DNA of 64,000 nt, taken from positions 732,305-796,304 of the forward strand of contig JAAOMT010000503.1 of NCBI GenBank assembly GCA_016748015.1, read 5' to 3'. Positions 351 through 58,300 of the stretch are shown piece by piece. Position 1 is the first letter of the stretch. Each line of letters starts with the position of its first letter. The DNA is from Geosiphon pyriformis uo1 (taxonomy: Eukaryota; Fungi; Glomeromycota). The translations under genes were made by a program, and so were the position numbers. The notes under the pieces are model-generated. The model saw only the letters and a program-made list of their open reading frames with translations, was not told the DNA's origin and ran no database searches.

Positions 351-2239
351 ATGAAAAAGAGCAGCTAATAATATTTAAAAGTCACAAAAGAAACAGAAAG
401 AAAGACATGATAGTCAACTACTAGACAAACCAGTGGAATTCAAGATTGGAGACAAAATACTCTTACATCATACCAAAGCAGAAAAACAATGAAGTGGAAA
501 ATTTGACCCCAAATGGGATGGACTATTTCACATAAAAAAAATTCTAGGAAATAGAGCTTACAAATTAAAACTGAATAACAAAATTTTAACCAAAGCAGCA
601 CATGGAGATTGACTGAAACCATACCACAACATTACACTACCATCTACCAGTAATATTCCACAATTAGGAGTACAGAGAATACTAGTCCAACCAGATAAAA
701 TTCCACGAAATCTGGAACCAATTGTTATTATTAACAACAACATGTTAAATTGATCCATTAAAAGAATATATAAAGACATAGTAGATACAACAGAAAATAT
801 CAGAAAAATGGAAATTACAGACAACATTCACTCACTAGCACAACAACTCTTTCAATTAATCCAACACCAGGAAATGGAGATTACAATCAATCAACAAACC
901 ATTTGATATCAAGATACTAGAAAGACATTTCAACTCAGAACACAGAGGAAAACTGAAAATACTGTGGACAAAATTATGGCAAAAGTAAAATTAGCAATAA
1001 GAGAGTCGACAAAAGAGGCACTATATCAAGAGTTGACTAAAGAAACTTGGAATTGGTGGATACAACAATTTCCAAGAAACTATTGTTATTTTTACTTGGG
1101 ACAACACATAAATATCCAGAATCTATATATGGATAAAACAAAGCAATTATTTGACAAAAGAATACTACAACAATTAGAACATTTTGTGAGAAAGAACAAC
1201 TTATCCACACAGGCCCGAGCCATATACCAAATACACACAGCATTTTAGGATAGATCAGAAATATTACTCAACAAAGCAATGGATATGGTTACCAGTAATC
1301 AATTAGGAAAGATCACCAATACTCAATTTGAAGAATTACAGACCCAAATAACACAAGTAATTCTCAAAAACAAAATCCAGGAAATACTTCAAGAGGGTGA
1401 ATTAAATAAGTTGGATTTTGATGGAGCTCAATATTAAAAGGAGAAAATAATGTTACTCATAGAAATATAGAAAATATATTAGCAGGAGTAGTAACCAATT
1501 AAAAGTAGACATAGTAAATATGGAATTTCAGGATTCCCTGATGAGGAATTGCAGGATTCCAGAATTCCAGGATTCTTCTCAAAGGAATTGCAGGATTCCA
1601 GAAATTTCAGAATTCCTGTCGTGAAGAATCAAGGAATTGAGAAATCTCAATTATGTATATATAGCAGCAGAATTAGAAGCTAAAAAGAGAGACCTCTCAG
1701 TGTAGATTAATCTAAGCAACCTTCCAATTCTCAATTATCAAATAAATAATTATTTTATATCTTAATCCACTCTCAATTATTAACACTTCATGTTGATAGT
1801 AATTGATACTTAACCATACTGGAACAATAGTTTTTGATCATGGCTATTGACGAGATACTAACTTACCAAATTGTCTTGGCTTATCTTTATTATCATTATT
1901 TTCTTTATTTTATTTATTTCTTTCTTTGATTCTGTTGTGTTTACTAATTGATTGGGGATTAAAAGTGCTGAGTTATTGATGTTATGGATAGCTTGGTAAA
2001 AGACCCAGAAATAAGAATAGATTTATATATATTATCAGTTAGCTTACCAAAAGGACACAACTACCAGAATAAATCTGGCCACCAAGCTAAGACTATCAAA
2101 TCTCTGTCTATTATACAAAAGACTCCATCAAAACCTTCAGATACAACACTTTCATAATATCATTGACAGAAATAGCTTTTGAGCACTAAGTTATGGGTTT
2201 GTTATTTGACTTGAGACTCCAAATAATTCAACTATAACA
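351..2239 (+). mobile_element. Gypsy family A copy A1, 3' part: integrase C-terminus, unknown domain (742-1437), PPT, 3' LTR (1451-2239)
   Basis: Closely matches 51310-53239. GPF-type integrase tail, ORF end DGAQY*, purine tract before TGTTACTCATAG, LTR ends ACTATAACA. Confidence 0.9.
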
Positions 2240-4731
2240 ATGCAACAGAAGACTTCAGAAAAATGAAAATTACTGACAACATCCACTCACCGGCACAATA
2301 AATTTTTCAATTGATTCAACAACAGAATATGAAAATTACTATCAATTAACAAATCATTAAATACCAAAATATCAAAAAGATATCCAAATACAAAAGTTAA
2401 AGAAAAACAGAAAACACTATCAACAAAATAATTCTAAAAATAAAATTAGCAATAAAAAAATCAACAATTGTCACCACATATCAAGAGTTAACCAAAGAAA
2501 CTTGGAAATAGTAAATACACAAATTTCCAAGAAACTTTTGTTATTTCCACTTGAAATAACACTTGAATATTCAGAATTTATACATGGATAAAACAAAATG
2601 ATTATTTGACACAATAATATTGCAACAACTAGAACAATTTGTGAGCAAAAACAATCTAACAACACAAGCAAAAGTCATCTATCAATTGCATGCTGGATTC
2701 CAAAACAGATTGGAAATTTTACTCAATCTGAAAATAGATTCCATTACAGTTAACCAAATGGGAAAAATAACCATCACCCAATTTGAAGAATTACAGAACA
2801 AAATAACTCAAGTAATTCTTGAAAAAAAAGTTCAAGAAATACTCAAAAACAGAGAATTAGAGTCAGAAGATTTGGGAAATCTTGATGGAGCTCAATATTA
2901 AAAAAGAGGAAATAATATTACTCATAGAATATAGGAAATATATATTAGCATAAATTAGCCAATCAGAAATAATTATAGTAAATATGGAATTCCAGGATTC
3001 CTCTCAAGAGGAATTGCAAAATTCCAGGAATTTTAGGATTCTCATATAAAGAATTACAGAATTCCAAAATTCCAGAATTTCTCTCAAAAGAAATTGCAGG
3101 ATTCCAAAAATTCCAGGATTCTTGGTGTGAGGAATTGAGGAATCGAAAAATTTCAATTATGTATATATAGCAGTAGTATTAAAAGGAGAAAAAAACAGAA
3201 TCTTTTAATTAGAAATCTCTTAGTTTAGATCTAATCCAAGCAATCTTCTATTCACAATTATTAATAAATAATTATTCATTATTGCAATTCACTTTTCACT
3301 ATTAACACTTTATGTTGATAATAATTGATACTTGACCACATGGAAATAATAGCTCTTGATTATGACTATTGATAGGATACTAACTTGTAATTGCTTTTAC
3401 TCATTTTTTTTTATTCCTTTATTTTTTTTTATTTCTTTTGTTATTTCTTTGGTTTTACTAAATTGATTAAGAATTAAGCACTAAGATACAAATGTTATAG
3501 GAACTGGTAAAAAATCCATGAAACAAGAGTAGAACACTTATAGATTTGAGGATAGTTTACCAGGAGGATTACCAGTCACCATGCTGTTACAGGATGGTTT
3601 TTTTGGTATATTTTAATTGTTGATCTTCCGTTTTAATTGCAATTAGTCTCTCATAAGTTTCTCTATTTTATATGTTGGATATTAATGATAATGTACTGAA
3701 GGTTTTCTCTTGATGTTGTAATATAAGTCTTCTCTTTAATTCTAATTGTCTTTGTATGTTGTGTACTCCTTCCTAAAAGCTAATCTGAAATCTACTTGCT
3801 GTCTGGGGTTTTCTCTGAGGCTATCTTTGCAATTGCCTGATGTGTTTCTCTAATCTAGAAACACAGAATATTAATGGCCTTTTTGCGATTTTTCTAAGTA
3901 TATAATAAAGCTTTTTCAATTTAATTAGTAACCACATAAATAATTTTGATTAAGAATTATTCTTCCAAAGGGTTCAAAGATAGAATGATAGTTTCATTTA
4001 CTAGAGAGTGTATGTGAATTCTATTGTTAATCTCGTAATTGTAATGTTCATTCAATTTATTATTTTTTTTATTAATTCTTTTTGAATAAAATTTTATTTA
4101 GATATTTGTTGCTTTTAGTTGAAGCTTGTTTTATTCTTCATCATTAAAAACTATTGTATATATATATAATTATTGTTTTATAAAATAACATTTTGTAATA
4201 CTCTATTTTTGTTATTTCTAAATAGTGCTTGCTGCTATTATAAAATAGTGCTTGCTGCTTTTGCATAATAGTGCTTGCTGCTATTGCACAATAGTGCTTG
4301 CTGCTATTTGTAAATCATTTCTTTTTTATAATTTGTTGCTGTGCTATTTCATGATTGGCTAATTTATATTATTTATAATTCCTATTAAATTCTTAAACTG
4401 TAATATTATCCCGTCCTTTCAAGATTGAGCTCCATCAAAATTGAAGTTAATTTCTTCATTGAATTCTAAGTTGCTATAGTAGTCCAATACTGTATTATTA
4501 ACTTGTTGTTGTAATTTTTGAAATTTTGAGTTGGTAAGTCGTCCAATACTATTGGTTGTTATTATGTTTATGGTCAAATCCAGTAATACTTTGTGACAAT
4601 TTTCAAATGCTTTGAAAATTCTGTAAACTGCTTTTTAAATTGAATGTACTGTTGGTTTTTTCAATAAAACTTTCTAATTGTTGGATTGTTGCTTTGTCAA
4701 TTACTTTAATTGATGAGTGGATTCATGATTT

Positions 4732-13048: not shown

Positions 13049-13170
13049 AGCAATAGTTAGCAATAACAAATAATAACTAGCAATAATGAGCAATAGCTAG
13101 CAATAATAAGCAATAGCTAGTAATAATAAGCAATAGCTAGCAATAATAAGCAATAGCTAGCAATAATAAA
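13049..13170 (+). repeat. 20-bp tandem repeats (GCAATAGCTAGCAATAATAA) in U3 of LTR-D; also at ~15440-15580
   Basis: Directly visible upstream of the TATA-like TGTATAAAAG. Confidence 0.85.
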
Positions 13171-21888: not shown

Positions 21889-21921
21889 AAAAACATTTCA
21901 ACCAAAAAATATAATAAAAAG

Positions 21922-23987
21922 ATGAACATACAAAAATATCAACAACTTCAATATTATATAAATACTTAATTGTTCAAGGAGAAATTATTTTAAAAAAAAC
22001 AAAACAACATAAAACAGCAATTAAAATAATTTATCAACCATCAAAATATACTTTACCAGAAGAACAAAAGAAATTCAGATCAACCAACCAAAGTGATTAC
22101 AGAACCAGAAAAAGAGACAGTATTATTTAACATGCACTCAGATCCAACAGCAGAACATTTTCACAAAGAAGCAATCATGGAAAGAATTAGAAAAAGATAC
22201 TATTGGCCATTAATGTATCCAGATATCATTCAATATGTTCAAAATTGTGATGCTTGTCAAAGAAGAAGTGGAACAAAACCCAGTGAATCATTAAAACCAA
22301 TTAAAGTGAGACAACTATTTGACCATATTAAAATTAACTTAGTCGGACCATTAACTATTACCAGCAGAGGCAACAGATATATTGCAATAGCCATGAATTA
22401 TCTCACAAAATGACCAGAAGCAAAAGCCATTCAAAGAACAAATGCAGAATTCATTGCTGAATTTGTTCATCAAAATTTGATCTATTGACATGGATGTTCA
22501 AAAGAACTATTATCAGATCAAGGAACTCATTTTGTGAATAAAACATTAGAAAAATTAAGTCAAAGATTTGGAATTAAAAAACTATTGTCATCATCATACC
22601 ATCCACAAACCAATGGATTAGTTAAAAGATTCAATAGAATATTGTGTAAAGCAATTGCCAAAATCAGCCAAGAAAATCAAGATGAATAAGATTTGTTTAT
22701 ACCATCAGTATTATTTACTTATTGGACAATGAAGCAAGATACTACACAAACAACACTATTTGAATTAGTATATGATAGAACAGCAATACTACCAGTAGAG
22801 ATAAAAGTACGAACATATCCAACAGAACCAATAACAGAAGAGAATTTCCAAAGAACATTGTTGAGAAGAACATATGACTTAATAGAAACACTAGAAAACA
22901 AAAGGCGAAGAACAGCTGATAACATACAAAAGTCACAAGAAAAACAAAAAGAAAGACATGATAACCAACTATCAAAGAAACTAGTTGAATTCAAGATTGG
23001 AGACAAAGTACTTTTACATCATACTAAAGTGGAAAAACAATGGAATGGAAAATTTGACTTTAAATGGAACAGACCATTTCACATAGAAGAAATTCTTGGA
23101 AATAGAGCTTATAAATTAAGGTTGAACAACAAAATCTTAACCAAAGCAGCACATGATGATCAACTGAAACAATATCACCATATGGCATTATCATCCATCA
23201 GTAAGATTCTACAATTAAGAGTACAGAGAATACTAATCAAACCAGATGAAATTTCATAAGATCTAAAACCAATTATAATCATTGAACCAAATATGTAAAA
23301 TTGAACAACCAAGGAGTATATAAAAGACATGATATATGTGACAAAAGACAACAAAAAATAGAGATTACTGACAATATTCACTCGCTAACACAACAATTCT
23401 TTCAACTGATCCAACAACAGAAAATAGAAATTACAATTAACCAACAAACTATCAAATACACAAACACCAGAAAAGAAACACAAAATAAAATATAGAGAAA
23501 AACAGAAAATACTGTTAACAAAATAATCACAAAAGTAAAATTGATAATAGAAACACAAACAAAAGTAATCTAATATTAAGAAATGATTATAGAAACTTGA
23601 AATTAGTGGATACAACAATTTCCAAAAAACTTTTTTTATTTTTATTTGGGACAACATTTGAACATTCAGGGCTTGTACACAGATAAAACAAAATTATTAT
23701 TTGACACAACAATACTGCAACAACTAGAACAATTTGTGAAGAAGAACAATTTAACCACATGAGCAAGAGCCATTTACTGGCTACACACAAGATTTCAAGA
23801 TTGGCCAGAAATCTTACTCAATCCAGAAATGGACTCTATTACCATCAACCAAATAAAAAAAATAACAAATACATAATTTGAAAACTTACAAAACAAGATA
23901 GCACAAGTAATTTTTGAAAAAGAAGTTCAAAAAATATTCAAAGACAGAAAATTAGAATTAAGAGATCTCAATAAAGCTTAATATTAA
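21922..23987 (+). pseudogene. Integrase plus in-frame C-terminal unknown domain of A3
   Basis: ATG at 21922 (MNIQKYQQL). HSDPTAEHF...CDAC, LSDQGTHF and NGLV-RFNR motifs. Confidence 0.88.
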
Positions 23988-40776: not shown

Positions 40777-43224
40777 AGCCAATCCTCTGTAAGATCGATC
40801 CAAATTCTAGGCTCCTCCTTTCTCTATGTCTATAATGTTTGGCGATTAGTTGACGTAGCTCTTCTTTTGAATTACTTGCCAGCTCAAAATTACTTTGATA
40901 AATGATAAATCCTAACCTATTCAGGATAGGTCTTTGTGCAGTGCGTTGATCACACTGTAATAAAAAATTTTTTTTATTTTCGTCAAAGTATTACGTAATA
41001 GAAGCTTTTACAAGAATTTCTTTATAAAAAAGATTATTGGTACAATTGATCTTTAATATAGCTTTTTAACAATTTTTTTGGTATAATTCTTTTATAATCT
41101 ATACAAGTTGTTATGCTTAATTAATTATAAACATGAATTATGCAGTTTTAACACATAATCAATTATTTAGATTTTTGTTTAAATTAAATTATGTTAATTA
41201 AAAAACAGAATTATTTTTAAAGCATTTATTTTAAATATAAAGTAATTTAAATTTAATAATAAAATTTATAATTTAAAAACACTATTTTGTTTAAAAAAAA
41301 TTTTAACTTTTTTTTATTTTATTATTATTAAAGTTTTTTGTAATAAATTTTTTTTTGAACTTAATAAAATTTTTAAATAATTTGCTTAATACTTTATAAA
41401 AATTTTTAATTTAAGTTTTTACAAAAAAAAATTTTTTGTTTTTATTTAAAACTAAACAGTTTTATTAAACAAAAAAATAATCAAAGTTATTAAAAACCGA
41501 TAAGCTTAATTATAAATTTTATTAATTAAAACAGATTTATAATTAAGTTTTAAAAAAACCAATTTAAAATTTAATAAATAAAAAACAGTTTTAAAATAAA
41601 ATATTAAATCAATATATTAATTTATAAAAATCTTAAAAACTTAAAAACAAATTTTAATAAACAATTTTATACTTAAAACTTTATTTATTTATTAAGTAAA
41701 GTCCAACTGCTATCTAATACATAGAGTCAAACTAAGTGACCCAAACTAAACACAATTTATGCACTTACTACATATGGCTAGCCACTCAGGCCAGTCAAGG
41801 CAACACTACACACCTATATTAACATTAACGACACCACCTAGACCAGAAAAAAAACAGCACGGCAAATAATAACCAAAGCTAACAGTAAATAATTCAACCA
41901 CACCAAGCATTCTAATCACTCCACCCGACAATATAGAAGAAATATCACGAGACAGACCAGAAACAACCCCACCATCAGCAACCAAACCAGCCCTCTTCAT
42001 TTGTACTCTGTGCTTAGATCTCATCAACTATGCCTTCACATGATGTAAATCAGCTACAAACCTAACAAAACCGACAACCTCACCAGTGGCCTGCTTCTTA
42101 TCTTCAAACACACCTCGAGCTTCTTCACACCATTCATCCAGCATGAAGCTCTTATACACAATAGAATACAAACCAACATCTAAAGAACAGGCAGACAATG
42201 TCTGCAAAACAGCTAAAGACGACGAGTTACAAAGACCTGCCACCAAAATCCAATAAGCAAAAGCCTTAACCAGAACCTCATCACAAATAACAACATTCCT
42301 AAAGCACATGAAAGCATGGTCAGAAAATTCCACTCTACCACACAGCAAGCACAATACACCAAGATAATTTCTATCATACAGTTTTTTTTGAACAGCTACT
42401 GAAAAGCACCTGTTGTTACCAGACAAAATTAAAGATATTGTTTAGCATAAAAATACTCTTATAAATCTTATTATTAATTAGCATATATTATTGTTTCAAA
42501 TTATCACTTATTACACTAGCAAAATGTCCGAAATTATCATTTAACTAATAACCCAATTTGTACATAACACAAATATAACCTAAGTACAATGATCAATCAT
42601 GCAATATCCTGAAATATGTAACATTCAAAAGTTCGCCGAAATTTGTAGAAATTTGCCGAAATAATTGATAGTTTACCAAAATATCTAATAGTTCGCAGAA
42701 ATAACTTGTAGTTTGCTGAAATGTATCTTTAGTTTAGCAAAATTGTAGAAAAAAGCAAAGTTCAAGTTTATAGAATAGTGTTATGACAAGTTGTATAAAA
42801 GAAGAGCTTTTCTCTTCAAAAAAATGTATCTTATTTTAGATTTATTACTTAGAACCATTTCTATACACACAAAAAGAAATAAATATCAAATAAATTCAAA
42901 AAACAAAATTCTTTAATTATTGTACTTGGAAAATCCCCAAAATCCAACTAACATTTTGAAATTAATTAGCTACCAATTTCAGTAAACTGTTAGTGACTCC
43001 AGGCCTGAATAGAAAAACGTTTCCCTTGATAAAATTCTATTTCTTTTATTTTTCTTTTTTTTTCTTATTACAATCATTAGGGTAGCCTACAGACAAGATT
43101 CCTGTAGAAGAGTTGACTTTCACAGCAAAGTAACTACACATTTTTAGTGAGCTTTCAGATGATGTTACTCATAGAAATATAAGAAATATATTAACATAAT
43201 TATTAGTCAATCAGAAGTAAGCAT

Positions 43225-43385
43225 AGTAAATGTGGAATTCCAGAATTCCTCTCAGAAATTGCAGGATTCCAGGAATTTCAGGATTCCCAACAAAGAATTG
43301 CAGGATTCCAGAATTCCAGGATTTCTTTCAAAGGAATCGCAGGATTCCAGGAATTCCAGGATTCCTGTCATAAAGAATTGAGGAA
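43225..43385 (+). repeat. GGAATTGCAGGATTCCAGGAATTCC-type short repeats in U3 of LTR-A (present in all A LTRs)
   Basis: Visible upstream of the TATA-like TATATATAG; copy number varies between LTRs. Confidence 0.8.
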
Positions 43386-44019
43386 TTTTAATTATGTATA
43401 TATAGCAATAGTGTTAGAAACAGAAAAGACAGAATTGATACCACAGAATCCTTAACCTAGAAACACAATTATCAAATAAATAATTATTTCATATCTCAAA
43501 TCCATTCCCCACTATCAACCCTTCATGTTGATAGAAATTGATACTTAACCATGCTGGAACAATAGCTCTTGATCACAGCTATTGACGGAATGCTAATCTG
43601 CAAATTGCCTTGGCTTATTTCTTTGCTTTTTTTATTTTTTTTTATTTTTTTTTTCTTATTTTATTTTTGATTTGTTGTTATATACTAATTGATAAAAGAT
43701 TAAGCGCTGAGTTATTGATGTTAAGGATAGCCTGATAAAAGATCCAGAAATACAGGTAGGATTTTATATATTATCGGATAGCTTACCAGAAGGGCATGAC
43801 TGCCAGACTAAATCCGGCCACCACGCTGAGAAAGAAATTGGGAAAACTCTTGGAAAATATATCTACTATCGACATTATTGAATCTCTGTCCATTATACAA
43901 AAGACTCAACCAAAACCTTCAGATACAGCATCTTCAGAACAGTCTCAATGAAAGTAGCTTTTGAGCACCAAGTTATGAGTTTGTTATTTAATTCAAAGCA
44001 GAAATAATTACCTGTAACA

Positions 44020-44037
44020 TTTGGTGCTCTCTGTGAG
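44020..44037 (+). promoter_or_regulatory. Primer-binding site of family A, shared with family D (13921-13939)
   Basis: TGG start 2 nt after the LTR, complementary to a tRNA 3' end ...CUCACAGRGAGCACCA. The tRNA is not established; elongator Met or Ile are candidates. Confidence 0.8.
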
Positions 44038-44081
44038 ATATAATCTTACAGAGAACCAGCACCAACAACACCAAACCAAAA

Positions 44082-47000
44082 GTGGCAGAATCAGAAATTA
44101 TAGGAGCAAACCATTTAGGATTTGCAAAATCTTTATTTCAACACTATTGTCAATACTTGGAATTAAACCACAATCATATATCTACTGAATTAATCTTCAA
44201 TTTTTACGTCAACGAAAAGATTTCCTTTTTATTAGGAACACTAGTGAATACTGAATCAGCAAGAGAAACTTTCTATAAAGAATTAATTCAAAACACCAAC
44301 CTACCAACAAATCATAATTTTGCATCCATCATTACTGAGATCAACAAAGAAATTGAACACCACACTCAACAAAAATATCCAATTACATATGCTAATAAAG
44401 GCAAAGGATAATTACAAACACCAGCAGTAACACCCAGAAAATTACAGCCACCTGCTTGGAAGAAAAACAGAGTTGAATCCCCAAGCAATCCATTCTACCA
44501 CTATACACCTGGAAGCACCATCAACATATCATCAACCGATGCGTTCTCATCAACTGCAACATCAGCATTTGGACGATTCCCATTCCAAAGTAGACAAAGA
44601 AAAACAGAATTGTTAGAACCATATGGTGAATACTTTAAGGGATTTAATTTGTGATCATCAACCCCATCAGGACTTCGATCACCACCGCCTTCACCAGATT
44701 TCGGAATCTCTGATCTGTGGGAAGCAGCAGAATCAGAAAAAGAGGAAGAAGAATTAGAGGATCAAGAATTTACTTACCAAAACCCAATTACTGAAAGCCC
44801 AGAAGTTGAAACCCTGAATCTTCAAGCTCAGCAAAATTTAAATATAGACAATTTGAAAATCGAAACTCCGAATCAGCAAAGACAGAACAATCCAAAACCT
44901 GAATTAATTAATTAGCAAAACTTACCTCTGATAATCGTCATTGATCAACCGCTGATTAATCCAGTAGCTGAACCTATACAACAGCCACTTCAACTACCAC
45001 CCCAACAACTACTTCAACAGCCACCACAACCACCTAACTTAAACCCAATGGCCTATGCACCCATCGCAAAACTTGACAACTTTACTGGTGAAGAGGATGA
45101 TGCTCAAGTATGGCTGAATAATGTAGAAAAGACCATCACAGCCAACAGATGGAATAATGTCCGAGCCATGCAAGCCATTCCCTACTTTCTCAAGAATACT
45201 ACCAATTTATAGTATCAGAGCTTGGTTAATAAACCACAAGATTTCAATGCCTTCAAAGTGGAATTCCTAAGATACTTTAGCAACAACAATAGCATCAATT
45301 GCCTAGTCAATACATTTACCACCATGAAACAAGAAGAAACTGAAGCAGTCACCACTTACCTGGGATGCTTCCATCGAAACTTGTGCCAAATTCAAGCAAT
45401 TGACAACGACTATTTCACAGCACCACAGATACTCAACCAGTTTATCCATGGCTTACGCAGCAGCATCTTGCAACATGTACATCTGTTGTATTCTGGTATG
45501 CTTCAAGACACAGTCACACGTGCCAGAGATTTTGAATCTACTGAGTTAGAGGCTAATCATGTCCAAGCCGTTAATCTAGTAATGAACGGATCATCTGAAT
45601 TGGATTCTAAATTGGAGAAGTTCAGTGAATCAATCAATAAGAGATTGGAAGGATACTTAGCTGACAATTACGCCATTTATCAGTCTTCACAATGACACAA
45701 TAACCAAGAACATCCTAATCGTGGCCAAAATCAACCATGTCCATCTTCATCAACCAATCAATAGTGACAACAGGAAATGCATATCTGCCACTATTGTGGT
45801 AACCAAGGACATATCCAAATTGACTGTCACCAGCATTTAAATAACCAATGATTAGGAAATCAATATCGAAACCCCGATCGCTGGTTTCAAACTCCGAATC
45901 ATTATCCAAATCAAAGTCAAGACCAATATTGGAATAATTACCTGCCAATGACGCAGCAACCAATCTATCAACCGCCAGTATATCAACCTCCGATTTATCA
46001 GCTGCAGCCACAAGTAATATATCAACCACAGCCACAAATTATCTATTAACCCCAACCAATTCAAACACTACCCCAGAACCCAGCTCAAATGACATCAGGC
46101 AACCCTCAATCCAGAATCACTCAAAACTGGAGATCAGCAATGGTTGTTCACCAACCAATTCCCCATTCACTAGATCCACCATCAAGATCACACACCTAGA
46201 ATTTGGATACCAGTCATGTCCAAAACCCAAATTCCCAACATTATTTAAGTCTCCTGGTTACCCCAGAAAATGCCACATCTAACAACACAGAATCCCATCA
46301 GCATGTACCTACCAACACAATTTCACCAGCAACCATCTTTAGCGACGAATCCCTAGCAGCTATCTTTCCTTTTAAACTTGAAGAAAACACACTAATACCA
46401 TTATTCAGTGGAGCTGCCCTCGAAGAGAAACCTATAACAGCAATGTACACGGATGCCAGAGTTAATGGTCATCTCATCAAACTCATCCTAGATAGTAGAT
46501 CAGCTGGCAGCATAATCACATGACAACTCATGGATCAATTAGGTCACTGAGTTGATCAAGCTGCCAGCGCCAGAATTATCACAGCTGACGGAGTGACCAA
46601 AACTCCAATCGGTGAAATTGACGAGTTTCCTTTTGAAGTCAATGGCATCGTGACTTCTATTAAAGTTCTAGTAATAGAAGCCACTCAATACCAAGCTCTC
46701 GTTAGTAATAACTGGCTATCAAAAGTCAACGCAATGTTAGACTGGAACACCCAGGAACTCCAGCTAATGTATTAGGGCCAACACATATGTGTTCCGGCCA
46801 CATGTGGCCACTTCAAAACACCTCCAAGAGAAAAACTATTGATCGAACTGGAGGAGGAGAAAGAAAAGCCTACCAAGTATTGTGGGCTGACGAAGAGCAC
46901 AATGAGCTGCCACCAATACTCTCCTGGGACGACAACAACAAGAAAAAAGGGAAACAAAAAAAAGAACTTACCTGGAAAACCGATAACCTGACATGGACCG

Positions 47001-50000
47001 ACAACAATGAGAGCAAACCGACTTCAAGCTGGAAATGGGAAGAAGACAAAGAAAATAAAGGGAAAGGAAAAGAAAAAGAGACCACTCAAACCACTACCAC
47101 TTATAACACCCACACTATACCACAACAATCTACCTATCGTCGACCTAAGCTTATATGCGTCGATTGCAGTAAGAAATTGTCGTCAATGGGCGCATGCTGT
47201 GGCGACAATGAGGAATACCACACTACAACAAAATTCTACTGTCATCCATGCTTATTCGAATGCTTTGGACGACCAAAAAGACAAGAAAAATGGGATAACC
47301 AACCTTGTCTCGCTTGTGGGGAGACCTGCTAGATGAAGAAATGTGGAATGACATCTCAGGATGTAGAGAAACATGTAATGTATTGTGTCAATACACAATT
47401 CTAATAAGCAACTGGGTAAGGAAAGAAACCTCAATGGAAGCAGTCTGGCAAAGAGCCGTACAGCAACTAGACAGTTGTCCACATGATGACGATAAAATAT
47501 GGCAAATGGCACTTGCCAAAATTGAAGGGGCGATGCCAGAAGAGATAAAAATGATTAAAGACAACCCCCCAGAACTTTTAGAGCTTGACTGGGATGCAAA
47601 ACCCATCATAAACCTCCTGGATCTAGAACAATTCCACGAACACTACCAAGAATTAGCACCCACAAGGGAAGAACAAAAACAACGATTAAAGCAGTTGAAT
47701 GCTCGACTATGTTAACACTGCCTAATTCCCTGTGACTTCTAGTATTGTGATGAGTGTGACCTCATCTACAATCTACCACCACGCATGATCTACTTGATCC
47801 CTGAAGAAGAAGAACCAATCAGCAGCTGTGCATCAGAATCAGAATCGCCAATCAATTGTGATTCAAACTCTGACGATGACGACGATAACAATGGTTCAAG
47901 CTCTATTCAAATTGGCAATGATGACAAAAACAATTTAGACTCAGATTTAAAACCCAATGTAAACTATGAACAATACATTGCACTACCAGATCTCTCCAAG
48001 GAACAAGAGTTGAAATGGTATAGTGACAATAGGGAAGGTATTATGCCAGAACGTGCACATAACACAGATGCAGGGTTTAATCTGAGATATCCAAGAAAAG
48101 ATGTCATCAAATTAGAACCGCATTCATGCACCTGCATTGATCTGAAAATAGCACTAGAAATTCTGGCAACAACAATGGTTCAATTAGCATCTAGGAGTAG
48201 TTTAGCAAAAAGAGGGATCAATATAAAAGGAGGAATAATTGACATGGGATATGTAAGAAATATTATCGCTATGCTACAAAATGACTCAGAAAAAGCCTAT
48301 ATAATAGAGCCCAACAAAAAGATAGCACAGGCAATATTCCTGCCTCTGATTAGAGTAGCTCAGTTACTGTCAGTGGGAAAGAGGGAGGAATTGGGAATAA
48401 CAGCAAGGGGAATACAAGGATTTGGATCAACGGGTAGAATAGAGATATCAGTTAATATGATGAAGGAAAAAATTGTTGGCCAAGGAGAAATTATCTCAAC
48501 TGGTCAAGCTATTTCCATTCCACCATATAGCCAGTACATGTTAGCAATAGAAAGAAAGGAAAAGGAGCAAGAACAGATTTTTGAAGTGGAAGCAACCCTT
48601 TGTGAATTAGGAGAGATTGGGTTGATCAATCTCTACATACTAGCCAAAAGCTATAACAGCATAAAAATTCCCATCTACAACAACACTGGCAATATTATCA
48701 ACATACCAGAAGGAACCACCATCGGATATTTAATCACAGAAATAGAAGACCAATTACCAAACTCCATTCCAGACTTTCCACAACTTTGTGGATATGTTGA
48801 CATTACATCACAAACAATCTATGGACAAGACAAATGTTATTTGCTCCAACTAGAACAATTGGAACAAATGAACATGGGAAACTTAGATTCACTCCAATGT
48901 ATGCAGTTCAAGATGTTACTTAACAATTTCAATGACATCTTTGCCAGTGAAAATGAGTTTGGCCAAACTGACATTATCCAGCATCAGATTAAGACTGAAG
49001 ATGCAATGCCAATTAAACAAAAAGCATACAAAGTGCCACCAGCCAGCCACAAGATTATTCGTCAAGAGATAAACAGAATGCTTAACAATGGATTAATTCA
49101 ACCATTAATGAGTCCATGGTCATTACCAGTGGTACTCGTCCATAAAAAAAATGGAAAAATCTAGTTTTGTGTAGACTACAGGAAACGCAATGGTGTAACT
49201 CGTGGAGACAGTTATCTAACTCCACGAATACAGAAATTATTCGATGCTTTCGGTGGGAACAAATGGTTTTCCACATTAGATTTGAACAGTGATTACTGGC
49301 AAGTAGCCATGAATTCAGCTGACAAGGAGAAGACGGCATTTACTACTAGAGAAGAGAATTTTGAATTTAAAGTAATGCCATTTGGCTTAACCAATGCCCC
49401 AGCAACTTTCCAATGGCTAATGGAAATTGTTTATACTGGCTTATTGTGGAAATTAGTAGTTATATACTTGGACAACACCAATGTATTCTCAAAGACATTT
49501 GATAATCATCTTCATCATTTTCAACAAGTGTTTGAAAGACTAAGAAGAGCAGGACTAAAGTTAAATGTGACAAAGTGCTTCTTTGGCAAAACAGAACTCA
49601 AATTCTTGGGACACATAATCAGCAAAGACGGCATCAAAACAGATCCAGAAAAAATAGAGATAGTAAAGAACTTTCCAGTACCGACCAATATAACAGAACT
49701 GAAATCATTCTTGGGATTTACCAGTTACTATCGTCATTTTATCAAGAATTTTTCCAAGATAGCACAGCCATTCAATTAACTGCAAAACAAAAATGCGAAA
49801 TATGAATGGACAGAAAGTCAACAAAAAGCTTTTGATATTCTGAGGAAAAAGCTCATCTAAGCTCCAGTACTGATCTATTCAGATTACAGCAAACCATTCA
49901 TTATCACTACCAATGCATCCAGTCAAGCATTGGGAGCAGTATTATCTCAGAGAAGACTGGATGGCAGAGAACATCCAGTAGCATATGCCAGCAGAGGTTT

Positions 50001-50268
50001 AACACCAGCTGAAAAGAACTATGAAACACCGGAACAAGAACACTTAGCAATATACTGGGCTGTCATGAAATGGAAAGAATACTTGAGCCAGAAGTTTGAA
50101 GTATACACAGATCACAAGGAATTAACATCACTCCAAAAACAAGAATTTGGAGATGGAAGACAGTCAAGATAGAAAATGGCACTCGCACCATACAAGTATA
50201 CTATACATTACAAAAAAGGAAAAGACAACAGAAATGCTAATGGTTTATCGCAAATAAGACAAATTTAA
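44082..50268 (+). pseudogene. A4 polyprotein: N-terminal extension, capsid, CCHC knuckle, aspartic protease, Cys-rich domain, dUTPase, dUTPase-like relic, RT, RNase H
   Basis: FTGEEDDAQVWL; CHYCGNQGHIQIDC; LILDSRSAGS; DAGFNL/ASRSS/GGIIDMGY/KIAQAIF/RGIQGFGSTG; VMPFGLTNAPATFQ, YLDNT; RNase H ending NANGLSQIRQI*. Two small frameshifts at ~46870 and ~47325. Confidence 0.93.
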
Positions 50269-50331
50269 GAACATTTCAACCCAAAAATATAATAAAACCA
50301 GAACAATACCAATAGAAAAATACAACAAAAG

Positions 50332-52396
50332 ATGAACATACAAAAATATCAACAATTACAACATTATTTAAACACTCAACAATTCAAGGAGAATTTATCT
50401 CATACGGAACAAAGGAGTATCAAATACCAATTAAAATATTTCATCACTCACCAAAATATATTTTATCAGAAAAATAGAAGGGATCTAGATCAACCAATCA
50501 AAGTAATTATGGAGCCAGAAAAAGAGACAATATTATTCAATATGCACTCAAATCCAACAGCAGGACATTTTCACAAAGAAGCAACCATAGAAAGAACTAG
50601 AAAAAGATACTATTGGTCATTAATGTACCCAGACATCATTCAATATGTTCAAAATTGTGACGCTTGTCAGCAAAGAGGAGGAACAAGACCCAGTAAACCA
50701 TTAAGACCAATCAAAGTGGAACAACCATTTGATCATATGGGAATTGATTTAGTAGGACCATTAACAATCACCAGCAGAGAAAACAGATACATAACAGTAG
50801 CTATGGATTATCTTACTAAATGGCAGAGACAAAAGCAATTCAAAGAGCGGATGCAGAATCCATTGCCAAATTCATTTATCAGGATTTAATTTGTCGACAT
50901 GGATGTTCAAAAGAATTATTATCAGACCAAGGAACTCATTTTGTGAACAGAACATTAACAGAATTGAGCCAAAAATTCGGAATCAAGAGACCATTATTAT
51001 CATTATACCATCCACAAACCAACGGATTAGTAGAAAGATTTAATAGAACATTGTGTGAAGCAATAGCCAAGCTCAGCCAAAAAAACCAGAACGATTGGGA
51101 TTTGTTCATACCATCAGTACTATTTGCTTATTGGACAACGAAACAAGATACTATACAAGCAATACCATTTAAATTAGTATATGGGAGAATAGCAACATTA
51201 CCAGTAGAGAGAAAAATTAATACATATCCAGCTGAACCAATAACAGAGAAAAATTTTTAAGAAACATTGCTGAGAAAAACATATGACTTAATGAAAACAT
51301 TGGAAAACAAACAAAGAAGAGCAGCTAATAATATCCAAAAATCACAAAAAACACAGAAAGAAAGACACGATAGTCAACTACCAGACAAACCAGTTAAATT
51401 CAAAATCAGAGACAAAGTATTACTACATATACCAAAGCAGAAAAACAATGGAGTGGAAAATTTGACCCCAAATAGGACGAACCATTTCACATAGAAGAAA
51501 TTCTAGGAAATGGAGCTTACAAATTAAGATTGGATAACAAAATTTTAACCAAAGCAGCATATGGAGATCAACTAAAACCATATCACAACATCACACTACC
51601 ATCTACCAGTAATATTCCACAATTAGGAGTACAGAGAATACTAGTCCAACCAAATAAAATTTCATAAGATTGGGAACCAATCATTATTATCAACAACAAC
51701 ATGTTAAATTGATCCATCAAAAGAATATATAAAGACATAGTAGATGCAACAGAAAATATCAGAAAAATGGAAATTACAGACAACATTCACTCACTAGCAC
51801 AACAACTCTTTCAATTAATCCAACACCAGGAAATGAAGATTACAATCAATCAACAAACCATTCGATATCAAGATACTAGAAAGACATTTCAACTCAGAAC
51901 ACAGAGGAAAACTGAAAATACTGTGAACAAAATCATGGCAAAAGTAAAATTAGCAATAAAAAAATTGACAAAAGAGTCACTATATCAAGAGTTGACTAAA
52001 GAAACTTGGAATTGGTAGATACAACAATTTCCACAAAACTATTGTTATTTTTACTTAGGACAACACGTAAATATCCAGAATCTATATACAGATAAAACAA
52101 AGCAATTATTTGACCAAGGAGTACTACAACAATTAAAATATTTTGTGGAAAAGAACAACTTATTTACACAAGCCCAAGCCATATACTGAATACACACAGC
52201 ATTTCAAGATAAACCAGAAATACTGCTTAACAGAGCAATGGATCTGGTTACCAGTAATCAATTGGGAAAAATCACCAATGCTCAATTTAAAGAATTACAG
52301 ACCCAAATAACACAAGTAATTCTCAAAAACAAAATCCAGAAAATACTTTAAAAGGAAGAATTACATGAGTTAGATTTCGACGGAGCTCAATATTAA
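50332..52396 (+). pseudogene. A4 integrase (HHCC, DDE, GPF) plus in-frame ~230-aa unknown domain (51701-52396)
   Basis: Own ATG after the RNase H stop. HSNPTAGHF...CDACQ, GIDLVGP, LSDQGTHF, NGLVERFNRTL. Ends DFDGAQY* next to the PPT. Confidence 0.9.
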
Positions 52397-55300
52397 AAGG
52401 AGAGAATAATGTTACTTATAGAAATATAAGAAATATATTAGCATAATTATTAGCATAATTATTAGCCAATTAAAAGTAAGCATAGTAAATATAGAATTCC
52501 AGGATTCCTCTTAGGAATTGCAGGATTCCGATTTCTCTTAAAGGAATTGCAGAATTCCAGGAATTCCAGGATTCCTGTCATGAAGAATTGAGGAATTGAG
52601 GAATCTCAATTATGTATATATAGCAGTAGTGTTAGAAACAGAAAAGACAGAATCGATACCACAGAATCCTTAACCTAGAAACACAATCATCAAATAAATA
52701 ATTATTTCATATCTCAAATCCACTCCTCACTATCAATCCTTCATGTTGATAGAAATTAATACTTAACCACGCTGAAACAATAGCTCTTGATCACAGCTAT
52801 TGATGGAATACTAATCTGCAAATTGCCTTGGCTTATTTCTTTGCTTTCTTTATTTTTCTTTTATTTCTTTTTTTCTTATTTTATTTTTGATTTGTTGTTA
52901 TATACTAATTGATAAAAGATTAAGCACTGAGTTATTGATGTCAAGGATAGCCTGGTAAAAGACCCAGAAATATGGGTAGGATTTTATATATTATCGGATA
53001 GCTTACCAGAAGGGCACGACTGCCAGACTAAATCCGGCCACCATGCTGAGAAAGAAATTGGGAAAACTCTTGGAAAATATATCTACTATTGACACTATTG
53101 AATCTCTGTCCATTATACAAAGGACTCAACCAAAACCTTCAGATACAGCACCTTCAGAACAGCCTCAATGGAAGTAGCTTTTGAGCACCAAGTTACGGGT
53201 TTGTTATTTAATTTAAAGCAGAAATAATCACCTGTAACAACAAGCAATTCTTGGGAAAGAGTTGACATTTACTACAATGTAACTATACAAAGTAACTGGC
53301 ATGGAATTGGTCATTTCACTTATAAGCCCAGCAGTTCAAATTATAAGAGATAATTTGAAGATAAATTCAGTTACTGAAGGTTCAACCACATCCAAAAAAC
53401 GTGAATTCACAGCAAACAAGCATCGACAACATTTAAGAAAAGAGACCAAAAACCTTCGGTAACACTGTACACAGCTTTTATCAAATATGAGCACAAATTC
53501 GAAGTTTTCTGACCAGTAAACTCAGTAAGCATATGAGAGTCTGGATGCCAAATTTTTGTGGTAGAAATCCAGTCTATACACCCAACAAGATCAACAGGTA
53601 TCATACTCACACCAGGCCCAGCCTCTCAGTCAGCATGATTAATAGATCAAAAAATGTCCCTTACAAAGTGGCAGGCATTATCAGGGATTGCCATGTTTTC
53701 AGCCATCAAATAACACTCATAAACTCCAACCAACAAAGAGAAGGAAGATCAAGCAGCTTCCTCAGCTGCCAAATTAGCCTTGACATACCCAAAATGCCAG
53801 AATGGCCTTTAACTTTAACCCAGACCATCTTGAGATCTTTTTCCCTAATCAGATTGAAAATATGGTGTCTTTCCAACCAGCACCAATTATGAATCAGGCA
53901 TGGCACAAGACAACTTTGACAAGCAGACATCAATAGCAGCTTGGCTATTAGTATGCAAAATCACTTGACAAGAGGAAGGTACACACTCAAGAGCCAACAC
54001 AACAGCCTACAACTCAGCTAGAGTAGAGAATAATAGACCACCAACCACAACACCAACACTTCTATCTAAAACCAGAAAATACACAGCAGCACCACAAGCA
54101 GCATCAACCAAGCCAGCATTTCTCAAAGATCCATCAGTATACACCTCAAAGCAACTAGACCAGATATCATGCAACCCATCTTTTACCAGAGAAAACACCT
54201 CAGAATCTAAAATGTTTGTATCAACAGACTGAGCAAAACCAGCAGAACTGGAAGCAGAAAAGCCTTAAACCAACATAAACTCAGATGCGACTGAGAACCA
54301 ATAAGGCACAGGGCCCCATGGGTCCAACTTTTTCCAACAACAAAAGATTTTCCAATCTAGCACATGGTCTCTCTTATCCAAAATCCGATCACCAAAAGCA
54401 ACCCCAAAACACTTCAGAAAGCAAACAGAATTAAAATACTCAGAACTACCTAGAATTGACAAAAGTGGAAAACAACCTGGACTGTGAAAGGCATTGGGAA
54501 GGTTGTTAGCCAAAGAAAGCTTATTACTCAAAAAAATTTTTGCAATCCCAGCCAAAAAGTTGTTGACTGGACTAACACACAACTTGACAGGAAACTGCAA
54601 AGAATCCAGAGAAGCCCAGCCAAGAATCTGCAAGTCCAAAAACCTATAATTGAACAAACGCCCAAGGATCCCAGAGGCATTAGAAAAAGACACCAAAGCA
54701 GCAATTTTCCCTTCAGATTGCACTTGTTCAAAAGTTTTCAAGCCATACAAAGAAGAGTGATGTAAGGCAGCATCCAGAAAATTACAAGGCAAACCAGCTT
54801 TGAACTTAAGACCCTTTTTAACCATAACATCCTATTTGCAATAAACACCAGATAAAACAAAACTAAATTGAGTCTAGTAACTAACTATAGGCTGCAAGAC
54901 AGCTGAGACCAAATACGAGAACTGTTTATCTGTAATAGCCTTCCTGAGCATGATGTTGACAAAAAAACGAACATCAGAATAAGCTTTAAACACACTAGGT
55001 TTAGAAAAACCCTCCGTAGACAAGAAGATATCCAGATAATAATGAGCTTTGCCCTTTTTAGCAATCAAGATTGGCTGACCACAAATACTCAGAGAGACAA
55101 TCCTAACACCCTGGTTAATGGGAATAGTTACCGTCTTATCATTATTAATAGAAATATCATTGATTTTGAAGAATTTACTGGCAATGTTCAGAGCATACTG
55201 AGTGAAGGCCTGACAATTTCCAATCCAAATTGTATCATCGACGAATGCACCAGCCGCCAAGTAAAACATCATCCCACCCACACCCTCAACTCTGCCCATC

Positions 55301-58300
55301 TTTGCAACAAACTTAGAATCAACATGGTATCCACACAAATGCTTGTGTTGTTTCACTTTGCATAAGAGTAGATCATAGAAAATCTTTCATAAGAGAGGCA
55401 AAAAAACTTCACCCTGGTCCAATCCATCATGTACACTATAGTTATCTGACAAGCCAAAATCAGTCATCACCCTGTTAACTCTATCCTCGTGAATGTTCTC
55501 AAAAAATCCAATAAACTTCTTACACATTTTGATGTACCGCAGATTAGCTTTCAAGTAAGACCAACTAACAGAATCATACACCTTCCACATATCCTGCAAA
55601 ACCAACCAAATTTCCCTATTTTTTTCAAAAGTATTCTTCACAACTGAACCAACTGCAAACACTGGAGATTGTGTAGAAGTACCACAGAGCACTGAAAAAT
55701 TATCACTTCAGAGAACACCAAACTTACTACAAGCCAAAGAGATGTGATCAGACAAAATCTTAGACAAAATTTTTCTGGCAGTCTCAATCAAAGCAATAGA
55801 ATGAGTATTAGTAAAAACACTATCCCAATCATAAGGCTTAGGGATCATTGAGACTCATGCTCTTTTCCACAAAGCAGGCACCATGCCAATAGATAAGCAC
55901 ACATTTAGCAGTACCAAAAGGCATTCCAACACCTCACCACAACCATGTTTCCAGAGTTCATTGGAAATGTCAGACAAGCCAGCAGCTTTGCCATCAGGCA
56001 GACTATTAGTAACCGAAAGCAATTCACCCATGCTAATCACATTTATTACATTAAAAAAAGCATCATCTCTAACATAGTTCAAAGGTGAATACTAACAAGT
56101 CCAGAGATCAGACAGCACCATAGGCATCACATGCTTCTGTGTCCAACTCTCCATAATCTTGTCAACACTTGACCTGACTTCCTCCAGCTCCAATATCAAT
56201 TCATTATTAACCACCAAATGATTCAACACCACCTTTCAAAATGGCTGATCCAGAACACTCCTAATCATACTTCCCTTGTCTGAGCAAAATTGTTCCATGT
56301 GCTTTTCAATAGTCTTTCTAATAGTAGCCTCTTGCAGCAACTTTGATTCAAACATCTTGGATTTTCTATATCCCTTTCTGACAAGTGACAAATAACTAAA
56401 AAGGTTCTTTACTTTTTGGCCACCACAAACCATGTCCTCCAGAACAAAAGCTTTACCAGCATTCAGAGCTGACCATTTTTTCACGAATCGATCGAAACCA
56501 AAAGTATCAGCAAAGGTCAGGCATTTGACTATCTTGGCAATCAGCAACTCCAAATCCAGGAACTTAGAAGAATGTTTATTTTTTGAGCACTGAAAATCAC
56601 AGAACCAATGTCTGAAAAATATTTTATCTGCAGAATCCACCACCACCTTTTCCAGCAAAAACCACATAGCATCCAAATCAAGACCAGCAGCAGTGCCAAA
56701 AAATCTCCTCTTTACCTCCAACATCTTAGCAGAAGAACATTTCTTAAAACAGGACCACCCAGCATCATCAGTATTCTTTATCCTAAACTTCCAATGATCC
56801 TTGTTGGTCTGCTTATGCAAACCATTCAGCTGAACATCTAAGAGTCCACCCAGGCCAACTGAAACCATGACAGATTTGTGATCTGTATTGAAGAAATCAG
56901 AAACAGAATTGACACAATGCTTTGCAACAGCAAAAGATAGAGTCCCACTAACAAGAATAAAATCAATTGTCTTCTTTACCCCCTAGAATTGCTCCATATA
57001 GCTGTTTTGACCAAAAAGTGTCTAACAAAAGAATTGACTAAACCCAAACCCAAACAGAACTTAAAACTCACACTTCTCCCAGAATCATTCTCGTTAAAAT
57101 CACCACCCAGAACAACAAAAGTGCTGGAGTTAACAGCCTTAGCAATAAAAAAATTCACCACAAGAGCCTGAGCAAATCTAGTCCCAGAAGAAGCACCAGT
57201 ATACAAACCCAAAATTGTAACCAAAAGCTTGTCTTTAAACAAAAGCCAAATTGAAATCAAATGACCAGGAACCTATTCAATCCTAGAAACATGGCAAGTC
57301 AAAGAGTTGTTTATGATCACAGTAACGCCAGCACCGAGATAACCAATATCCAACCCAGAAGTAAAAATCCGAATCCCATCAAATTTGTTCCTGATTCATG
57401 ATCCAAAAGAGAATCTCAATTTTGTCTCAGCAACAAAGAAAATCATATTTCCAGAACTCACATGCCAACAGACTATGTCTGTCTGTTTTGCAGGAACATT
57501 GATACTCTAAACATTGCATGTAGCTAATTTCCAGACCAGATTACTTATTGGAATAAAGGGAGTAAGGACAAGCCCGAACCAGAACACAAGAGATTCAATC
57601 TTGCCAGGATCAAACCAAATGAAGCTTCTAGAGCAGATAATTTGGATTCCAAACTGCCCACCTTGGAGGTAAGAACCTTAGAACCACTTGAACTAAGACC
57701 AGCAGTAGGCTCATCACTACCAAAAAGAGGCGGAACAAACAGAGCCAACACATCATCCAGAGCCATATCTAAATCCACAATCAGAGCCAAAGGCACTGAA
57801 CCAGCCATAGAAGGAGCATAAGAAGTGAATACCAAAGGCACCAGATTAACAAAACTCAATTTTTTAAGAATAACAGAAACCTGATTCGAAAAAATTTCCA
57901 AAAAACACTCTAAAACCACCAAACAATCACCCAAACCATCAACCTGAAGACCAGAAAAACTAAAAGAAAGATGCATACCACCAGAGAGTGAACCAGAACC
58001 AGAAGAGAAGCCACCAGAAGAGGAGGCAAGAGACACCACTTGAGCCCAAGATTTTTCGCCAAAGGCAGCAAAGTGAGAGATAGGAACATTTTTTTGCATA
58101 CAACCTGGCTAACTGAAGATAATCAAAACCAGAAGCAGACTTCTTAAACAAAATTGGAAGGCCAGAAGATGACTCAACCGATACATCACACTCCAGAGTA
58201 GAATGGCCAAAATGCCCATACTTCCCACACCAAACCAAATCCAATCTCATCCATAAGAGATGTACCTCACCAAAAATAGGCTTAGTGAGAAAAACAGATT

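What the first reader, a model, noticed from the sequence alone, without database searches (positions are those of the whole stretch)
51701..52396. Conserved ~230-aa unknown domain after integrase, where a chromodomain or env would sit
Seen in A1 (742-1437), A2 (2240-2901), A3 (~23293-23987), A4, and as a diverged C-terminal half in family C (4419-~4715, minus strand). C reads IQQLESFIEK...AVYRIFKAFENCHKVLLD...ITTNSIGRLTNSKFQKLQQQV...FDGAQS*. A reads LQQLEHFVRK...AIYQIHTAF.DRSEILLN...VTSNQLGKITNTQFEELQTQI...FDGAQY*. Amino-acid conservation across divergent families implies function. The domain is in frame with integrase, separated only by a TGA in MLN*S in three copies, which may be a decayed CGA or a read-through stop. 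It looks helical, with no signal peptide or TM segment, so it is not Env. Inference: a candidate targeting or chromatin-reading module linked to the CpG preference, a packaging adaptor, or an anti-silencing protein.
Basis: partly seen in the sequence, partly recalled or inferred. Interest (0 to 1): 0.78.

Follow-up and report, generated by a model that had tools for sequence, protein, structure and literature searches.

The report
Unknown third gene in fungal retrotransposons
Behind the integrase gene of several gypsy-type jumping genes of a soil-fungus-like genome (likely Geosiphon pyriformis) lies a separate, conserved gene for a small helical protein that matched no known family or fold in our searches and likely helps the element switch itself on by binding its own DNA or RNA.

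Summary
The domain is real, but it is not a tail of integrase. It is a separate third gene (ORF3, about 209-219 aa, window 51737/51767-52396) of a dUTPase-bearing Ty3/gypsy element; all named relatives are Geosiphon pyriformis proteins. Across genomic copies the junction codon is TGA (about 69% of depth) or TAA (31%), with no CGA at 1% or more, while this copy's three internal stops are minority decay alleles. An independent metagenome element carries the homologue 316 nt behind the integrase stop, in another frame. ORF3 is under purifying selection like integrase (dN/dS 0.2-0.45) and occurs in at least five Geosiphon subfamilies and two metagenome lineages (16-43% identity). It is soluble, mostly helical, not Env and not a chromodomain. 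Pfam, PDB and two AlphaFold models gave no significant match; a ParB/YhcG-type helix-turn-helix resemblance stayed inconclusive. Best guess: a trans-acting nucleic-acid-binding regulator of the element (about 0.4). Extra ORFs after pol are a known kind; this protein family and the stop that also separates integrase from RNase H were not found described.

The parts
51767..52396 (+). ORF3 of element A4, 209 codons plus stop, from the ATG that aligns with the start of all other subfamilies; this copy is dead (3 internal stops)
   Evidence: P0003 is an intact 209-aa version, 89% identical to copy A1; starts align
51737..51766 (+). Optional 10-codon N-terminal extension of family A; the codon at 51737 is ATA here and ATG in 74% of depth across copies
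   Evidence: 51739 A>G, 80255 of 107896; 26 of 101 gene models start here, 30 of 101 at 51767, 45 elsewhere
51710..51712 (+). Integrase stop codon, TGA or TAA across copies
   Evidence: 51711 G>A 30305 of 96980, 46 contigs; no row for 51710 at the 1% threshold
51713..51736 (+). 24-nt spacer with TATATAAA at 51726-51733; same length in A3 but internally shifted, so the DNA motif is kept and the peptide is not
   Evidence: 0 of 8 motif sites vary at 1% or more against 8 of 25 other A/T sites (counted by hand, P about 0.08)
50332..51712 (+). Integrase gene with its own ATG (H2C2 zinc domain, core, C-terminal SH3, no chromodomain); two frameshifts in this copy
50266..50268 (+). TAA directly after RNase H, also in A3, C and L001: pol is split before integrase
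45213..50265 (+). Gag capsid, protease, Cys-rich insert, dUTPase, RT and RNase H of A4 (decayed; gag begins further upstream)
   Evidence: Pfam for gag, dUTPase and RT; protease and RNase H read from the translation and by Pfam in copies C and A3
52395..52409 (+). Polypurine tract overlapping the ORF3 stop
   Evidence: sequence
52410..53239 (+). 3' LTR (TG...CA)
   Evidence: 6% divergent from the 5' LTR
43163..44019 (+). 5' LTR, followed after 2 nt by a TGG primer-binding-site-like stretch; the 5-nt flanks of the element do not match as a target-site duplication
808..1437 (+). ORF3 copy A1
2263..2901 (+). ORF3 copy A2 (upstream part cut off by the LTR of A1)
23358..23987 (+). ORF3 copy A3
4419..4713 (-). 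C-terminal half of family-C ORF3, left by a deletion of integrase and the ORF3 N-half; one frameshift

Best explanation
The stretch is a separate third gene (ORF3) between the integrase stop and the polypurine tract of a dUTPase-bearing Ty3/gypsy LTR retrotransposon, conserved across several element families, and its predicted helical, soluble product of about 209 aa likely works in trans as a nucleic-acid-binding regulator that helps the element's own expression. Shown: separate reading frame with its own ATG, fixed stop upstream, purifying selection, family-wide conservation, no membrane segment. Predicted: an alpha-beta-beta N-terminal module, a disordered basic linker and a confident helical core with a conserved helix-Gly-Lys-Thr-Asn-helix-Arg element. 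Inferred: it is made from a short message (an internal TATA-like element or re-initiation), enters the nucleus through the basic linker, and binds LTR DNA or genomic RNA, which would let the element be expressed in a CpG-methylating genome. Odds: separate functional ORF3 about 0.92; nucleic-acid-binding regulator about 0.4; specifically anti-silencing about 0.15.
For: Separate gene: junction is TGA or TAA with no CGA row at 1%, whereas the three internal stops of A4 are sense codons in 88%, 71% and 88% of depth (52017, 52187, 52349); 52187 is a true CGA-to-TGA decay and serves as control. In L001 the homologue lies 316 nt after the integrase stop, in another frame, and runs into PPT and LTR. 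Subfamilies A, C, D, E, F and both metagenome proteins begin at about the same aligned position. Selection: dN/dS 0.21-0.24 (kappa 1) or 0.39-0.44 (kappa 4), intervals below 1 in 5 of 6 pairs; integrase 0.29/0.45, RT-RNase H 0.13/0.24; 0 of 2000 neutral simulations reach the observed amino-acid conservation in those five pairs, and third positions change about twice as often as second positions after removing CpG sites (P 0.0001-0.002). Homology to the metagenome proteins: hhalign 98.7%, E 4e-16. For nucleic-acid binding: net basic linker in 7 of 7 representatives; conserved G128, K129, N131, R141, K117 and aromatic residues on and around two adjacent helices; weak fold rows Spo0J 1vz0 (Z 4.1, rmsd 5.2, 92 aligned), Raf1 6kkn (Z 3.9, 5.2, 86), KorB 1r71 (Z 3.3, 4.5, 93); DUF1016_N at E 0.056 in one member. 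Window CpG observed/expected is 0.08-0.26 over the elements; CG methylation of TEs is reported in the related Rhizophagus irregularis (10.1101/2021.03.30.436303, passages).
Against: The function is untested. The helix-turn-helix lead did not pass: hhalign to 38 YhcG N-domains gave P 0.15 (all families) and 0.04 (subset), reached by 3 of 30 and 1 of 30 block-shuffled controls; to 30 ParB domains P 0.64 and 0.12, reached by 19 of 30 and 2 of 30. The three fold rows lie in the background range (Z under 5) and did not appear among the 50 rows for the P0003 model. The two metagenome proteins are acidic overall (pI 5.4, 5.9). A4-A1 evolves neutrally and the C-versus-A dN/dS interval includes 1 in 3 of 4 estimates. 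Several automatic gene models join the integrase SH3 region to ORF3 across gaps that look like predicted introns (e.g. P0043, P0074, P0086, P0092); I take these for mis-predictions on dead copies but have no RNA to show it. Depth shares come from contigs of one run and are not copy counts.
Confidence: 0.42

Rival explanations
1. ORF3 is a protein adaptor that brings the separately translated integrase into the particle or tethers it to target chromatin.
For: Integrase is cut off from Gag-Pol by a stop in A3, A4 and L001, so it would need another way into the particle (inference from how Ty3/gypsy polyproteins package integrase, recalled). The split and ORF3 occur together in two distant lineages. 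These integrases end in SH3 with no chromodomain.
Against: Nothing links ORF3 to integrase or Gag physically; ORF3 with integrase was not modelled. The basic linker and conserved Lys/Arg fit nucleic acid as well.
Confidence: 0.22
2. In family A the stop is read through now and then, giving an integrase with a C-terminal targeting domain.
For: ORF3 is in frame with integrase in A1 and A4, and the spacer has 24 nt in A1, A3 and A4. Stop suppression is proposed for gag-pol of Tj1 (PMC5911963, passage).
Against: 31% of depth has TAA; the spacer peptide is shifted in A3; L001 is out of frame with a 316-nt spacer; no stored protein spans the junction by the pattern tested.
Confidence: 0.07
3. ORF3 is a movement or spread factor, a functional stand-in for Env that carries particles along coenocytic hyphae or between nuclei.
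For: It sits where env sits; non-Env roles are proposed for sense extra ORFs in plants (PMC7264820, passages).
Against: No hydrophobic segment; no match among predicted viral structures (0 rows at E 0.001).
Confidence: 0.08
4. ORF3 is a copy-number brake or other negative regulator of the element, or a captured host gene that is merely carried along.
For: An internally promoted inhibitor is known for Ty1 (PMC5911963, passage). A DNA-binding protein could repress as well as activate.
Against: A passenger would not show dN/dS like integrase across families; no cellular homologue was found. A repressor role is not excluded.
Confidence: 0.15

Closest known systems
Sense additional ORFs between pol and the 3' LTR of LTR retrotransposons (review PMC7264820: abstract and passages; bdelloid ORF3s PMC5408684: abstract and introduction)
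   Same: Position, sense orientation, presence in most copies, conservation like the core genes; bdelloid elements also pair dUTPase with ORF3.
   Different: No transmembrane segment and no GDSL, DEDDy or Env match; fungal host; no sequence or fold match found; integrase is also a separate ORF.
CERV of C. elegans Cer1 (PMC10309623: abstract and passages)
   Same: Lineage-restricted, non-Env product of the env position in a Ty3/gypsy element; a model for a trans-acting regulator.
   Different: CERV is 517 aa, spliced to a Gag N-terminal part and depends on a Cys-rich loop; ORF3 is about 209 aa with its own ATG and 0-3 cysteines. No homology was tested directly.
Chromoviruses, incl. dUTPase-bearing fungal gypsy elements (PMC2864245: passages)
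   Same: Gypsy domain order; dUTPase between protease and RT is reported there for PosPlaTy3-5; 'additional ORF of unknown function' appears in its figure legend.
   Different: No chromodomain after the integrase SH3; the downstream module is a separate gene.
VANC anti-silencing proteins of VANDAL transposons (PMC13547354: passages)
   Same: Transposon-borne accessory protein in a methylating genome; the functional analogue of the boldest reading.
   Different: DNA transposons of dicots, MAIN-like fold; no similarity found here and no anti-silencing test done.
DUF1016_N (YhcG N-domain) and ParB-type helix-turn-helix domains
   Same: A Y-x-x-I-G-x-x-L helix and a helix-Gly-helix align in register; weak fold rows to Spo0J, KorB and Raf1.
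   Different: Scores are not above shuffled controls with confidence; bacterial families.

Membership tests
Ty3/gypsy LTR retrotransposon (host element) | Order gag-PR-RT-RH-IN between two LTRs | tested here: met
   Pfam and translations; LTRs 43163-44019 and 52410-53239
Ty3/gypsy LTR retrotransposon (host element) | PBS after the 5' LTR and PPT before the 3' LTR | tested here: met
   Seen in the sequence; the priming tRNA was not identified
Ty3/gypsy LTR retrotransposon (host element) | Integrase translated as part of Pol | tested here: not met
   TAA right after RNase H in A3, A4, C and L001; integrase has its own ATG in A3, A4 and L001. Read-through not excluded.
Ty3/gypsy LTR retrotransposon (host element) | Target-site duplication | tested here: inconclusive
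   The 5-nt flanks of A4 differ; the copy is old and nested
Sense additional ORF (ORF3) of LTR retrotransposons | Separate sense ORF between pol and the 3' LTR | tested here: met
Sense additional ORF (ORF3) of LTR retrotransposons | Present in most copies and conserved like core genes | tested here: met
   4 of 4 family-A 3' ends in the window; dN/dS like integrase
Sense additional ORF (ORF3) of LTR retrotransposons | Expressed from a spliced or sub-genomic RNA | not testable with these tools
   No RNA run was listed
Chromovirus | Chromodomain fused to the integrase C-terminus | tested here: not met
   Only SH3_Tf2-1 in the integrase ends of A1, A3, A4 and L001 at E 0.5; ORF3 is separate and predicted mostly helical
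Chromovirus | RT phylogeny within the chromovirus clade | not tested
   No tree was built
Env / env-like protein | Signal peptide and transmembrane anchor | tested here: not met
   Best 19-residue hydropathy 0.27-1.29 in 6 of 6 proteins; hydropathy only, no signal-peptide predictor
ParB / DUF1016_N-type helix-turn-helix | Significant profile similarity | tested here: inconclusive
   P 0.04-0.64; shuffled controls reach the score in 1-19 of 30. YhcG-N against ParB gave P 0.0003 in the same set-up.
ParB / DUF1016_N-type helix-turn-helix | Structural match to the DNA-binding domain | tested here: inconclusive
   Z 3.3-4.1, rmsd 4.5-5.2, 86-93 aligned, within background
CERV / VANC-like regulator | Nuclear, binds the element's RNA or DNA, needed for export or de-silencing | not testable with these tools
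   Needs bench work

The most novel reading that the evidence does not exclude
A gypsy lineage of Geosiphon-like fungi has a three-gene layout in which integrase is made apart from Gag-Pol, and ORF3 is an undescribed-fold, sequence-specific LTR-binding anti-silencing factor, the LTR-retrotransposon counterpart of VANC, that let these elements expand in a CpG-methylating genome reported to be 41% LTR sequence (PMC11952901, passage).
Probability: 0.13. Interest if true: 0.82.

Novelty: new variant of a known kind. Interest (0 to 1): 0.52.

Why it matters
Accessory genes decide how retroelements evade silencing, export RNA or choose targets, and very few have a known function, fewer still in fungi. 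This one is old (16-43% identity between families), selected like integrase, confidently modelled in its core yet unmatched in the PDB, and intact versions exist that can be expressed and tested at once. If it regulates the element, it offers a handle on why LTR elements dominate the Geosiphon genome. The separate integrase gene raises a second testable question, how integrase reaches the particle. Practically, well over a hundred 'hypothetical proteins' of G. pyriformis are pieces of this transposon gene.

Tried and rejected
Decayed CGA at the junction: rejected. Start at 51701: rejected. Family C as a natural half-domain: rejected. Pfam for single members and two alignments: no ORF3 hit near a curated cut-off; the best rows were tails of mis-joined gene models or weak. 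PHROGs: best E 0.0012, unknown function. PDB by sequence: best E 0.94, 0.16 and 0.0032 (importin-5 helical repeat, taken as compositional). Foldseek against PDB (both models) and viral structures (P0003 model): 0 rows at E 0.001. VIA wide and second look: best Z 5.1 and 4.5, none at 8; this does not show a new fold, and the N-terminal module was not folded alone. tblastn against phages: no match. ParB and YhcG-N profile tests: inconclusive. Homodimer prediction: no verdict, score 0.00, alignment not used, own fold uncertain. No RNA holder listed. ESM Atlas gave no answer for any sequence tried. No whole genome was held, so copies could not be counted or their junctions read one by one. P0165 (E 2e-7) is a low-complexity repeat and was dropped. 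No named relative outside G. pyriformis was found (10 of the 92 hits were looked up: 7 Geosiphon, 3 unnamed); the one word-free search used the narrow family-A profile, so absence from other mycorrhizal fungi is not shown. Literature searches listed no description of this ORF; the original Geosiphon genome paper and the TE library behind PMC11952901 were not seen and could mention it. Own-scan look-ups by sequence found nothing.

Full report
Setting. The window is AT-rich and CpG-depleted over most of its length and holds nested Ty3/gypsy elements with gag, protease, dUTPase, RT, RNase H and integrase domains. The finding lies in element A4, bounded by LTRs at 43163-44019 and 52410-53239, 6% divergent from each other. 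All 101 hits of the first protein search are Geosiphon pyriformis hypothetical proteins, the best 89% identical over 209 aa, so the host is very likely this fungus. LTR elements are reported to cover 41.2% of its genome (PMC11952901, passages). No whole genome was held for the window.

Observation. A3 has the TGA at the same place but reads M*N*T.

The junction. Laying the contigs of one DNA run (X1, possibly the window's own sample) on the region shows the alleles of many copies, weighted by depth. The three internal stops of A4 are minority states: sense codons in 88%, 71% and 88% of depth at 52017, 52187 and 52349; 52187 is a real CGA-to-TGA decay. The junction behaves differently: no variant at 51710 reaches 1%, and 51711 is A in 30305 of 96980, so the codon is TGA or TAA, both stops. 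The codon at 51737 is ATG in 74% of depth. Of 101 gene models, 26 start there, 30 at 51767 and 45 elsewhere, and no stored protein spans the junction by the pattern tested. Some models do join integrase pieces to ORF3 across gaps; I read these as mis-predictions.

An independent element. A profile search of 1.84 billion representatives gave 92 hits, among them intact unnamed metagenome proteins P0157 and P0166; profile-profile comparison with family A gives 98.7% probability, E 4e-16. The contig of P0166 (L001; GC 33%, CpG o/e 0.21) reads RT-RNase H, stop, integrase with its own ATG, stop at 2139, a 316-nt spacer, then ORF3 at 2456-3148 in another frame, ending across the PPT and LTR start. 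ORF3 is therefore a gene of its own. Further searches showed at least five Geosiphon subfamilies (A P0003, C P0120, D P0119/P0164, E P0177, F P0210/P0221), 16-43% identical to each other and 19-31% to the metagenome proteins. All begin at about the position of 51767. The window's C piece matches residues 126-218 of P0120 and follows RNase H directly, so it is a deletion derivative.

Selection. Between A subfamilies dN/dS is 0.21-0.24 (kappa 1) or 0.39-0.44 (kappa 4) with intervals below 1 in 5 of 6 pairs; integrase gives 0.29 and 0.45, RT-RNase H 0.13 and 0.24. These values include neutral decay after insertion and so overstate the true ratio. In those five pairs 0 of 2000 simulations that keep the mutation spectrum conserve as many codons, and third positions change about twice as often as second positions without CpG sites. 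The close pair A4-A1 is neutral (P 0.40), as expected for two dead copies. C against A is inconclusive: 3 of 4 intervals include 1.

The protein. Two AlphaFold models (mean pLDDT 78, pTM 0.69 and 0.63) agree on a helix and beta-hairpin at the N-terminus, a disordered linker and a confident helical core. The linker is net basic in 7 of 7 representatives. Conserved columns include P89, Y92, Y94, K117, E124, G128, K129, N131, R141, F146, N164, G167, T170 and F174 (P0003 numbering); I see no catalytic or metal-binding set. There is no hydrophobic segment. Pfam, PHROGs, PDB sequence, Foldseek and VIA searches gave nothing significant. One lead was followed: Spo0J, Raf1 and KorB among the weak fold rows (Z 3.3-4.1) and DUF1016_N at E 0.056. 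Profile comparisons put the expected motifs in register with YhcG-N but did not clearly beat shuffled controls (P 0.15 and 0.04; 3 and 1 of 30), and ParB gave no support. It remains a lead only.

How it likely works. Shown: a separate, selected, soluble protein carried by the element for a long time. Inferred: it must be made from a short message or by re-initiation. The spacer holds TATATAAA 33 nt before the conserved ATG; the motif survives in A3 while the spacer peptide is shifted, and none of its 8 sites varies at 1% against 8 of 25 other A/T sites (by hand, P about 0.08). This is a weak hint in 45%-A sequence. A small basic-linker protein with conserved Lys/Arg on adjacent helices fits best a factor that binds the element's LTR DNA or RNA and promotes its expression (about 0.4), by analogy with CERV (PMC10309623, abstract and passages) and VANC (PMC13547354, passages). 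The main rival is an adaptor for integrase (about 0.2), made attractive by a second oddity: a TAA follows RNase H in A3, A4, C and L001, and integrase has its own ATG in A3, A4 and L001.

Known and new. Sense extra ORFs after pol are a known kind (PMC7264820, abstract and passages; PMC5408684, abstract and introduction), and dUTPase between protease and RT is known in fungal gypsy elements (PMC2864245, passages). Nine literature searches listed no description of this protein family or of the split before integrase. Earlier scan notes record other unknown post-integrase ORFs in other genomes, so the class is common; none was matched to this one by sequence. Verdict: real, a new variant of a known kind, function open; interest 0.52.

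Noticed in passing
window 50266-50334; A3 about 21856-21891; C 4731-4733 (minus); L001 772-801: A TAA directly follows RNase H in four of four elements looked at, and integrase starts from its own ATG 24, 33 or 63 nt later (in frame in all three, but the spacers of A3 and A4 are out of register). Pol appears split into two genes.
   Followed up: partly
window 7999-6902 (minus, family C) and about 46900-47750 (A4): A Cys-rich insert of roughly 250 aa with several CxxC pairs lies between protease and dUTPase in both families; no Pfam match at E 0.5 for the C copy. Possibly an undescribed zinc-binding domain.
   Followed up: partly
P0003-P0270 (protein hits): Well over a hundred G. pyriformis 'hypothetical proteins' are whole or partial ORF3, often joined to gag, integrase or LINE pieces by automatic gene calling.
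   Followed up: no
window 44020-44040: Primer-binding-site-like stretch starting TGG two bases after the 5' LTR; the priming tRNA was not identified.
   Followed up: no
window about 25700-36600 and 54200-59300 (minus): Decayed related elements with an RT piece and an RRM-like ORF, probably non-LTR retrotransposons.
   Followed up: no
L001 3117-3148; families F, P0157, P0209: In these lineages ORF3 runs through the polypurine tract into the LTR, so the purine tract is read as an acidic LEEEIM motif, whereas family A stops at the tract.
   Followed up: no
window 10032-10920, 11385-12211, 12937-13920, 15328-16358: Several further LTR-like repeats (solo or nested) related to families A and C.
   Followed up: no
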